Positions 20,967-23,650 of a DNA stretch of 64,000 nucleotides are shown in pieces; positions within the stretch are counted from its first letter, which is position 1, and every line of letters begins with the position of its first letter. A program made the translations under genes and the position numbers. The stretch comes from Eledone cirrhosa (Eukaryota). The stretch is taken from the NCBI GenBank assembly GCA_964016885.1, contig OZ024750.1, forward strand, positions 7,812,001 to 7,876,000, written 5' to 3'. Under the pieces are notes generated by a model. That model was not told where the DNA came from. It saw only the letters and a list, made by a program, of their open reading frames with translations, and made no database searches.

Positions 20967-21430
20967 ACACCAGGTCCGGACACAGAAGAGCCCAACTCCC
21001 ACTGCCAGCGCCTCCATCTCTCTCGTCCTCCCTATCTCTCATGAACACCAGGTCCGGACACAGAAGAGCCGAACTCCCACTGCCATCGCCTCCATCTCTC
21101 TCACCCTCCCTATCTCTCATGAACACCAGGTCCGAACACAGAAGAGCCGAACTCCCACTGCCATCGCCTCCATCTCTCTCGCCCTCCTATCTCTCATGAA
21201 CACCAGGTCCGAACACAGAAGAGCCGAACTCCCACTGCCAGCGCCTCCATCTCTCTCGCCCTCCTATCTCTCATGAACACCAGGTCCGAACACAGAAGAG
21301 CCGAACTCCCACTGCCATCGCCTCCATCTCTCTCGCCCTCCTATCTCTCATGAACACCAGGTCCGAACACAGAAGAGCCGAACTCCCACTGTTATCGCCT
21401 CCATCTCACTTGCTCTCCATATCTCTCATG
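20967..21430 (+). repeat. 77-78 bp minisatellite, about 6 copies
   Basis: Unit atgaacaccaggtccgaacacagaagagccgaactcccactgccatcgcctccatctctctcgccctcctatctctc; starts at 21041, 21119, 21196, 21273 and 21350. Confidence 0.95.
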
Positions 21431-22378: not shown

Positions 22379-22666
22379 AGTAAATACACATTAAACAAAC
22401 TAAACCCCTTTCCATGTTATCTGGGGGTCCCATCACCATATTCACTGAAATGCCATCATAAGAGGGATTCAAGTTTCTTATTTTCCGATATACTTTCCCT
22501 GACATTTCCTTTGACAATGTGAATTTTCTCCAGAAATATATCAAGTACAAATTCGATATTTCCAAGGTAACATTCCTACAACTATGTAAATGCTATTTTA
22601 ACATTCAATGACATATTTCTATTGCTTAAGCCCACTACAAAACTGTTGTATGTACAGTGTATATAT

Positions 22667-22862
22667 ATAGATGAGATTCTACAGGACTAGAACTGTTTCA
22701 TTCTTTAGAAATCATCCAAAATCATCAGAGATTCCTGATGATTTCTAAAGAATGAAACAGTTCTAGTCCTGTAGAATCTTATCTATATTAAAACTTTTAT
22801 ACTCTGCAGTGTATTGAGTACCTTACTTACTGTGGTTACCTCCGATTCAACCCGGAATAACG
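22667..22862 (+). mobile_element. (TA)n-flanked fold-back element, family B; complete hammerhead at 22729-22779
   Basis: agattc CTGATGA t ttc taaa gaa t GAAA cag ttctagtc ctgt A gaatct. Inverted partial copy at 22667-22716. Confidence 0.85.
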
Positions 22863-22926
22863 TATATATATATATATTGGTGTTTTTCTGCTCTCCTAAA
22901 CTTCTCATTACGAGAAGCAGTTTCTA

Positions 22927-23134
22927 TTTGGATTGACAGTATTGGTAGAGTGTCGGACATGTTTTAAGGCATATAGTTACCTTCTGAGTCCACATTCCTA
23001 TTATTCATTTAGGGTCAATAAAATAAAGTACCAGTCAAGCACTGGGGTCGATTAACCAGCATTCGGGGTCGATAAAATAAAGTACCAGTAATGCACTGGG
23101 TAATTGCTGGCCTTGTGCCTAAAGTAGAAACAAT

Positions 23135-23136
<2 letters not shown>
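22927..23136 (+). mobile_element. SINE S1 composite (degenerate copy plus a younger 3' half)
   Basis: Core occurs twice. Confidence 0.8.
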
Positions 23137-23168
<32 letters not shown>

Positions 23169-23180
23169 AGTGTGTGTGTG

Positions 23181-23350
23181 TTTATCCCGGGCTCAATCGG
23201 GGGTAACCACAGTAAGTAAGGTACTCAATATATAGCAGATTATAAATATTTTATATAGAGATGGCTTCTACAGGACTGGAACTGTTTCATTCGGGAGAAA
23301 TCATCAGGAAGCCGACTGTCCAAGTAAAATGGTGGTATTTATACATTTTC

Positions 23351-23352: not shown

Positions 23353-23388
<36 letters not shown>

Positions 23389-23390
<2 letters not shown>

Positions 23391-23650
23391 AGCTATCGCT
23401 GTATTTTGACTAAAGAAATTAAATAAATTATTTAGCCTGATAGTGCGGTCAAGAACCCTCGTAGAAATGGAAAAAGATGAGTATTGACTCCCATGTACGT
23501 CAATACTCATCTTTTTCTATTTCTCCGAGGGTCCTTAACCCCACTATCAGGCTAAATAATTTCTTTAATTTCTTTAGTCAAAATACGGCGATAGCTTATA
23601 TTTCTAATAATTTCAAACCCACTCGCTGTTTCGAAAATATTCTTACTTGA
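23389..23650 (+). mobile_element. (TA)n-flanked fold-back element, family C (arms 23389-23488 and 23499-23598, plus tail)
   Basis: About 100 bp inverted arms; homologous to 35050-35320. Confidence 0.82.

What the first reader, a model, noticed from the sequence alone, without database searches (positions are those of the whole stretch)
22729..23313. Compensatory covariation in hammerhead stem I between two family-B copies
Seen: stem I is agattc/gaatct at 22729-22779 but ggcttc/gaagcc at 23263-23313, i.e. two double compensatory substitutions. The stem II loop changes (taaa vs tccc) while ttc/gaa, CTGATGA, GAAA and the ACAG/CTGT-A stem III with its GUA site are kept. Inference: the RNA structure was under selection in the source elements, so these are functional ribozymes rather than chance motifs.
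Basis: partly seen in the sequence, partly recalled or inferred. Interest (0 to 1): 0.75.

Follow-up and report, generated by a model that had tools for sequence, protein, structure and literature searches.

The report
Ribozyme stem repaired in Penelope lineage
Both motifs are cut-short ends of a known kind of jumping gene (a Penelope-like retrotransposon) that carries a predicted self-cutting RNA; their matching changes are real and arose step by step in the parent elements, which likely kept the fold under selection, but nothing shows that these two copies still work.

Summary
Both motifs are 5'-truncated pLTR ends of one Penelope-like retrotransposon family. Full elements with an intact 758-codon frame carry Hydra-clade motifs, and the hammerhead has the Hydra-type core of Craig 2021, file S2. 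The two copies are an old and a young subfamily of one lineage, so the covariation is two events. Pair 4 (C-G to A-U) is a clean double transversion. It likely passed through an active A·G source: exact genome counts on one background are C-G 375, A·G 12, A-U 19, C·U 4. The outer pair is weaker: a CpG-type transition plus probably a 1-nt deletion. Stems II and III do not covary. Core, stems II and III and loop III show 0 lineage changes in 35 sites, against about 28 in 175 flank sites. Selection on the source elements is therefore likely. Activity of these copies is not shown: copy 1 sits in a long palindrome, and copy 2 has a broken dimer palindrome. The scan already reported PLE hammerheads elsewhere in this genome. 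Known kind, new family.

The parts
22729..22862 (+). Copy 1, long arm: truncated pLTR of the young subfamily (S3). It starts at the 5' end of stem I and ends with the ~65-nt tail next to (TA)n.
   Evidence: aligned -6..+125 to a natural pLTR copy, 97%
22729..22779 (+). Type I hammerhead motif of copy 1: stem I 22729-34/22774-79; core CTGATGA 22735-41; junction U 22742; 3-bp stem II 22743-52; junction U 22753; GAAA 22754-57; stem III 22757-60/22769-72 with an 8-nt loop holding CTAG; predicted cut after 22773.
   Evidence: sequence; model R1 78 bits; cleavage untested
22665..22728 (-). Copy 1, short inverted arm (C3 to about +53) with a duplicated piece of the core start. It has no complementary stem I and no intact hammerhead, and it makes the insertion a long palindrome centred on the stem I 5' strand.
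   Evidence: fold
23180..23350 (-). Copy 2: truncated pLTR of the older subfamily (S1), with 43 nt of native sequence upstream of the core and the tail; (TA)n at 23353-23387.
   Evidence: (-43..+120, 90% to a natural pLTR copy)
23263..23313 (-). Type I hammerhead motif of copy 2; predicted cut between 23269 and 23268; a rare T-to-C change in loop III breaks the CTAG palindrome.
   Evidence: 82 bits
54531..54705 (.). Third insertion of the same family (S1 type): a palindrome folded back inside loop II, with no CTGATGA half and so no hammerhead.

Best explanation
The two motifs are type I hammerhead sequences in the truncated terminal repeats (pLTRs) of a Hydra-clade-type Penelope-like retrotransposon, and their stem I differences are fixed differences between an old and a young subfamily whose source elements likely kept the fold under purifying selection. 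Shown: the parent element (pLTR-ORF-pLTR, a hammerhead in each repeat, insertion in (TA)n) and a ladder of subfamilies from S1 (GGCTTC/GAAGCC) through S2 (AGCTTC/GAAGCT) to S3 (AGATTC/GAATCT). Inferred: pair 4 changed 5' side first, and a mismatched A·G source produced several insertions before the 3' side was restored. Inferred mechanism: in a tandem transcript the two hammerheads pair through the CUAG palindrome of loop III into a dimer, probably helped by the element's protein, and cut after GUA. That would free unit RNA whose 5' end lies just before the ORF. The dispersed truncated copies, including these two, are most likely inactive by-products that decay after insertion.
For: Parent element: L092-L094 each hold a 758-codon open frame that starts just after the predicted cut site and L095 a 750-codon frame; L092 and L098 have a hammerhead motif on both sides. 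Motifs SDKT, YRDD, CxCX5C, YIG, CxxC and CxH are present and match the Hydra definition (PMC8557442 section 11) and the alignment in its supplement (by eye). The Hydra-type core CTGATGAT..TGAA and ACAG/CTGT-A occur in that paper's file S2. Among 196 arms with native upstream sequence, pair 4 is CG 98, AT 79, AG 8, other 11, and pair 6 is AT 156, GC 25, other 15. A tree of 115 of these arms with the covarying columns masked gives a ladder; divergence falls from 6.5% in S1 to 1.8-2.8% in the youngest groups. Lineage changes are 0 in 35 core/II/III/loop III sites, 4 in the 4 loop II sites, and 34 in 175 flank sites as printed, or 28 without six edge artefacts; p is about 0.002, or 0.016 with the downstream rate only. 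Exact genome counts are C-G 375, A·G 12, A-U 19, C·U 4. Six of the 12 A·G copies carry the flank type of the A-U descendants and none of the 4 C·U copies does. The helix III homoduplex is -12.8 versus -1.4 kcal/mol for the hairpin, and cofolding gives the dimeric arrangement.
Against: There are only two events. Pairs with a change on both sides number 2 of 13, no more than shuffles (2.2; 495 of 500); stems II and III show none. The outer pair can be explained by a deletion plus a CpG hot-spot transition, which also appears at that site in several S1-type copies (4 A·C arms). A·G 12 versus C·U 4 alone is not significant (p 0.077), and the A·G copies do not form a clade. An active A·G source shows that perfect stem I was not required. 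The oldest group (S0) has an extra U in the 5' strand. The monomer hammerhead fold is not the MFE. Pfam gives no RT hit and only a weak GIY-YIG hit (E 0.09). In the anole PLE, catalytic mutants did not affect insertion in vitro (PMC11167929). The core is also somewhat less mutated than downstream flanks in inserted copies (2.2% versus 3.8%, p 0.035), which does not fit pure neutral decay; unresolved sublineages could explain it.
Confidence: 0.72

Rival explanations
1. The fold is kept for the element's copying rather than for cleavage: stem I or the core marks where the RNA starts or where reverse transcription folds back, and catalysis is incidental.
For: Of 33 arms in 1.08 Mb of evenly spaced sample, 27 start between -10 and +32 of C3 and 16 start at -10..-1, in or at the stem I 5' strand (35 rows minus 2 duplicates; arms starting beyond +45 were not counted). 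The palindrome centre is the whole stem I 5' strand in both S0 and S3 short copies. HHR mutants did not change insertion in vitro.
Against: All catalytic positions and the GUA site are invariant along the lineage, which a mere hairpin would not need. Truncation at a structured region can be a by-product.
Confidence: 0.12
2. Stem I was rewritten at the DNA level by template switching between its two strands (quasi-palindrome correction), or the A·G copies are chimeras of S2 and S3, so no selection on RNA is needed.
For: The family folds back frequently at exactly this place. A·G copies occur on more than one flank background (6 S3a-type, 2 S2a-type, 1 side branch, 3 truncated).
Against: Full elements keep pair 7 mismatched, so no extended templated tract is seen. 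Chimeras should give C·U on the same background, and none of 4 does. This does not explain the invariant core.
Confidence: 0.1
3. The two window copies are themselves active ribozymes kept by host selection.
For: Both retain all core bases and a fully paired stem I. Inserted copies have a slightly lower core mutation rate than flanks.
Against: Copies are young (2-7% diverged), so intact cores are expected. Core mutations do accumulate (15 of 693 sites). Copy 1 lies in a long palindrome and copy 2 has lost the loop III palindrome (homoduplex -6.2 kcal/mol).
Confidence: 0.06

Closest known systems
Hydra-clade Penelope-like elements and their hammerheads (Craig et al. 2021, PMC8557442; section 11, search passages, supplement part 2 and alignment passages read; includes Hydra-1_Obim)
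   Same: Single ORF with C-terminal GIY-YIG, DKT, CxCX5C linker, CxxC and CxH, no CCHH, (TA)n targets. The core is CTGATGAT..TGAA with U on both sides of stem II (most Penelope-n_HM rows). Stem III ACAG/CTGT with GUA matches Penelope-1_NV and Hydra-1_aMil.
   Different: Stem II is 3 bp and AU-rich. Loop III is 8 nt with an inner CTAG palindrome, against 1-3 nt in the listed Hydra rows. The motif reads RWR rather than RWK. The 3' UTR is long and microsatellite-rich (about 5 kb between hammerheads in L092, against <3 kb elements). Protein and hammerhead differ from Hydra-1_Obim, so this is another family.
[quoted passage not shown]
   Same: Type I motif in pLTRs, mostly dispersed as truncated single or inverted copies, with palindromic loop III suggesting dimers. 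[quoted passage not shown]
   Different: There is no G10.1-C11.1 pair and helix II is short rather than long. Helix III can close as a 4-bp hairpin. Here the order of compensatory changes is resolved within one lineage.
Poseidon element of Anolis (PAc), protein-assisted hammerhead and tail (Frangieh et al. 2024, PMC11167929; parts 1-2 of 4 read)
   Same: Hammerhead at the pLTR-ORF junction, one-sided tail, AT-rich targets.
   Different: Different clade. The tail here is about 65 nt, and no biochemistry exists for this family.

Membership tests
EN+ Penelope-like element | Single ORF with RT and C-terminal GIY-YIG endonuclease | tested here: met
   758-codon frame with YRDD and YIG motifs, collinear by eye with Hydra proteins in the PMC8557442 supplement. 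Pfam: GIY-YIG E 0.09, no RT model hit. No PDB hit.
EN+ Penelope-like element | pLTRs in tandem or inverted arrangement, 5' truncation, one-sided tail | tested here: met
   pLTR-ORF-pLTR in L092 and L098; inverted arms; ends at about +53-69 or +120-125.
Hydra clade | DKT, CxCX5C linker, CxxC and CxH near the C-terminus, CCHH absent, (TA)n insertion | tested here: met
   Motif scan against the definition. The second His of CCHH is absent by reading the sequence.
Hydra clade | RWK motif; element length under 3 kb | tested here: inconclusive
   RWR in place of RWK; about 5 kb unit because of a microsatellite-rich 3' UTR. The paper says 'generally short'.
Hydra clade | Monophyly with Hydra RTs in a phylogeny | not tested
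   Published proteins were seen only as supplement text; no tree with them was built.
Type I hammerhead ribozyme | Core C3-A9, G12-A14, A15.1-U16.1, H17 and three helices closed by stem I | tested here: met
   Sequence; 95.5% of 1222 cells paired in 94 distinct rows.
Type I hammerhead ribozyme | Canonical G10.1-C11.1 pair | tested here: not met
   U and U flank stem II. This is also so in most published Hydra-clade motifs, so it lowers 'canonical HHR' but not 'Hydra-type HHR'.
Type I hammerhead ribozyme | Covariation in all helices | tested here: inconclusive
   Two pairs in stem I only; stems II and III are invariant apart from scattered single changes.
Type I hammerhead ribozyme | Self-cleavage after N17 | not testable with these tools
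   Needs an in vitro assay or RNA end mapping.
Non-LTR retrozyme | Non-coding tandem monomers each with a hammerhead | tested here: not met
   No tandem array at either copy; the parent encodes a protein.

The most novel reading that the evidence does not exclude
This family preserves a complete compensatory walk of a ribozyme helix in its fossil copies: C-G, then a transposition-competent A·G mismatch, then A-U, after which the lineage expanded again. The catalytic core and an 8-nt dimer palindrome stayed fixed throughout. That is in vivo evidence that dimeric hammerhead cleavage matters for PLE propagation, against the in vitro result that it is dispensable, and it supplies natural alleles to test.
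Probability: 0.5. Interest if true: 0.5.

Novelty: new member of a known kind. Interest (0 to 1): 0.3.

Why it matters
Whether PLE hammerheads do anything for the element is open. Craig 2021 suggests they may simply parasitize PLEs, and Frangieh 2024 found catalytic mutants inserted normally in vitro. A dated series of natural alleles with a fixed core and a repaired stem favours function in the source elements and gives a small ready test set. The system itself is known, and covariation in PLE hammerheads has been remarked on since 2014. One full-text search for a described mismatch intermediate in a retrotransposon ribozyme listed two unrelated papers; a single query does not show that it is unpublished.

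Tried and rejected
Rfam gathering scan of the window: 0 hits. PDB sequence search: 0 hits. The ESM Atlas gave no answer for the ORF, so the RT fold is not independently confirmed. RNA runs: no RNA holder listed; no reads were laid, so expression is open. Lunse et al. (dimer cleavage of small PLE hammerheads) is not held; I saw only its citation and a review's summary. Rejected: that the stem I 5' strand of copy 1 is a junction artefact. It lies at the palindrome centre, but full elements carry the same hexamer natively; only the seventh pair is junction-made. Rejected: my first idea that the U·U next to stem II is unusual, since it is the usual Hydra-clade form. The first private-mutation test was biased by motif-based picking and was redone on 58 copies retrieved with upstream-only queries. 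The explicit dimer energy evaluation failed (one search printed 100000), so only duplexfold and cofold are used. The covariance model found no related family that adds covariation in stems II and III in 1 Mb. The 0 of 500 shuffle result for covarying cells is not used as a probability because cells share ancestry. Rows dropped: 130 of 326 arms lacked native upstream sequence or had a stem II segment of another length; the tree used 115 of 196; alignment A1 used 119 of 196 plus the two window copies (one drawn row with an insertion was left out). Samples from similarity searches are biased toward their queries; only and the evenly spaced sample are not.

Full report
Observation. Both 51-mers are present as described, copy 1 on + (22729-22779) and copy 2 on - (23263-23313). 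They differ at 8 positions: 4 in stem I, 3 in loop II and 1 in loop III. Rfam finds nothing and the hammerhead fold is not the minimum-energy fold. Identity continues for about 80 nt downstream to a common end next to microsatellite, so these are two copies of one repeat. Copy 1 also has an inverted arm at 22665-22728.

What the repeat is. The window lies in a 3.0-Gb genome. An animal, probably cephalopod, host is my inference and was not tested. A related locus ran from the repeat end into a coding fragment. Searching with it led to full elements: 758-codon open frames in L092-L094 and 750 codons in L095, with a hammerhead motif on both sides of the coding region in L092 and L098. The protein has SDKT, YRDD, CxCX5C, YIG, CxxC and CxH. 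These are the features Craig et al. 2021 give for the Hydra clade of Penelope-like elements (PMC8557442 section 11), and the sequence follows their alignment closely by eye. Their file S2 lists the same core form with U on both sides of stem II, and the same ACAG/CTGT-A helix in two families. Pfam support is weak. In 108 stretches of 10 kb, almost all evenly spaced, I found 33 arms overlapping the motif, which extrapolates to roughly 90,000 arms in the genome. Of the 33, 27 begin inside or at the hammerhead.

Covariation. From 326 distinct arms, 196 with native upstream sequence were tabulated. They form a ladder from S1 (GGCTTC/GAAGCC, copy 2 type) through S2 (AGCTTC/GAAGCT) to S3 (AGATTC/GAATCT, copy 1 type). 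A tree of 115 arms with the covarying columns masked recovers the ladder, and divergence falls from 6.5% to about 2% along it. An older-looking group S0 shares the S1 3' strand, which polarises the changes, and has one extra U on the 5' side. On alignment A1, 2 of 13 pairs change on both sides, both in stem I; that count equals the shuffled expectation, and the excess of covarying cells reflects shared ancestry.

The two events differ in weight. At the outer pair, S1 has 10 nt between the cut site and the next anchor and all later groups have 9. A minor S1 variant turns into the S2 sequence by loss of one C. The 5' change is a CpG-type transition that also appears at that site in several S1-type copies. 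Pairing is restored, but little selection is needed. Pair 4 is two transversions. Exact whole-genome counts on an otherwise identical 51-mer are C-G 375, A·G 12, A-U 19 and C·U 4. Twelve against four alone gives p 0.077. However, 6 of the 12 A·G copies have the flank type of the A-U descendants, which is rare among C-G copies (3 of 58 in my query-biased sample), while none of the 4 C·U copies has it. I infer an active A·G source between S2 and S3. The A·G copies do not form a clade in the short-region tree, and three sit on other backgrounds, so chimeras or private mutation are not excluded for all.

Selection. Along S1 to S3c the majority state changes at 0 of 35 core, junction, stem II, stem III and loop III sites. 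It changes 4 times in the 4 loop II sites, and 28 times in 175 flank sites after removing six alignment-edge artefacts (34 as printed). That gives p about 0.002, or 0.016 with the downstream rate alone. This is the stronger evidence for selection in source elements. After insertion, copies retrieved with upstream-only queries carry 15 core substitutions in 693 sites (2.2%) against 99 in 2612 downstream (3.8%). The core decays, a little more slowly than the flank; unresolved sublineages or alignment noise near the (TA)n ends could explain the gap.

Likely mechanism. Loop III holds a CUAG palindrome that is fixed along the lineage. Helix III is predicted at -1.4 kcal/mol as a hairpin and -12.8 as a homoduplex, and cofolding two S3 motifs gives the dimeric arrangement. 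Dimer cleavage with low activity is reported for metazoan PLE hammerheads (PMC4209133; review PMC6765202 passages), and protein assistance for the anole element (PMC11167929). I therefore infer that the two pLTR motifs of a tandem transcript cut as a dimer after GUA. None of this was tested here. For the window copies the prediction is unfavourable: copy 1 read through folds into a -99.8 kcal/mol hairpin, and copy 2 has a loop III change that weakens the duplex to -6.2.

Novelty and verdict. Hammerheads in PLE pLTRs, their covariation and an octopus Hydra family are published, and this scan has noted the system in other parts of this genome. An octopus repeat-annotation paper lists Penelope-like families and does not use the word ribozyme (PMC13282606, passages). 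This family differs from Hydra-1_Obim and has a longer palindromic loop III. What is added is the resolved order of the stem changes with a likely mismatched intermediate. The bioRxiv retrozyme paper was read in part 1 of 5 only. Observation confirmed, interpretation partly supported, new member of a known kind, interest 0.3.

Noticed in passing
window 8750 (-), 8894 (+), 10511 (+), 44501 (-): Other hammerhead-like motifs of unrelated families (long stem II, TATATA-type helix III); 8750 and 8894 form an inverted pair.
   Followed up: no
L152:243-3389 (G000:C3:190.0 Mb): At least 11 tandem 310-bp units, each with a minimal hammerhead (palindromic CGCG helix III); looks like a non-LTR retrozyme.
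   Followed up: partly
L103-L210: A simple descriptor found 70 hammerhead-like motifs of many families in 1.08 Mb, often as inverted pairs; no shuffle control was run.
   Followed up: partly
window 22717-22734 and many loci (L002-L030, L281, L286): Short insertions are palindromes centred on the whole stem I 5' strand in two subfamilies, with one arm ending near +55-69 and the other near +125.
   Followed up: partly
window 23388-23600: About 210-bp near-perfect inverted repeat between (TA)n tracts, directly beside copy 2; MITE-like by eye.
   Followed up: no
L029 (inverted junction): A fragment of another short repeat is captured between the two arms, suggesting RT template jumping between element families.
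   Followed up: no
L092:4511-7100; L094; L095; L101: Young full elements carry a 2-3 kb microsatellite-rich 3' UTR between ORF and pLTR, longer than described for Hydra elements.
   Followed up: partly
L226, L235: Two related arms with A-to-G changes at two nearby sites upstream of the core, possibly an edited RNA copied back.
   Followed up: no
window 20967-21430: Six copies of a 77-bp GC-rich tandem unit, 96% identical.
   Followed up: no
L015:2709-3128: C2H2 zinc-finger exon resembling Zic (label recalled) about 1.2 kb from an insertion of this family.
   Followed up: no
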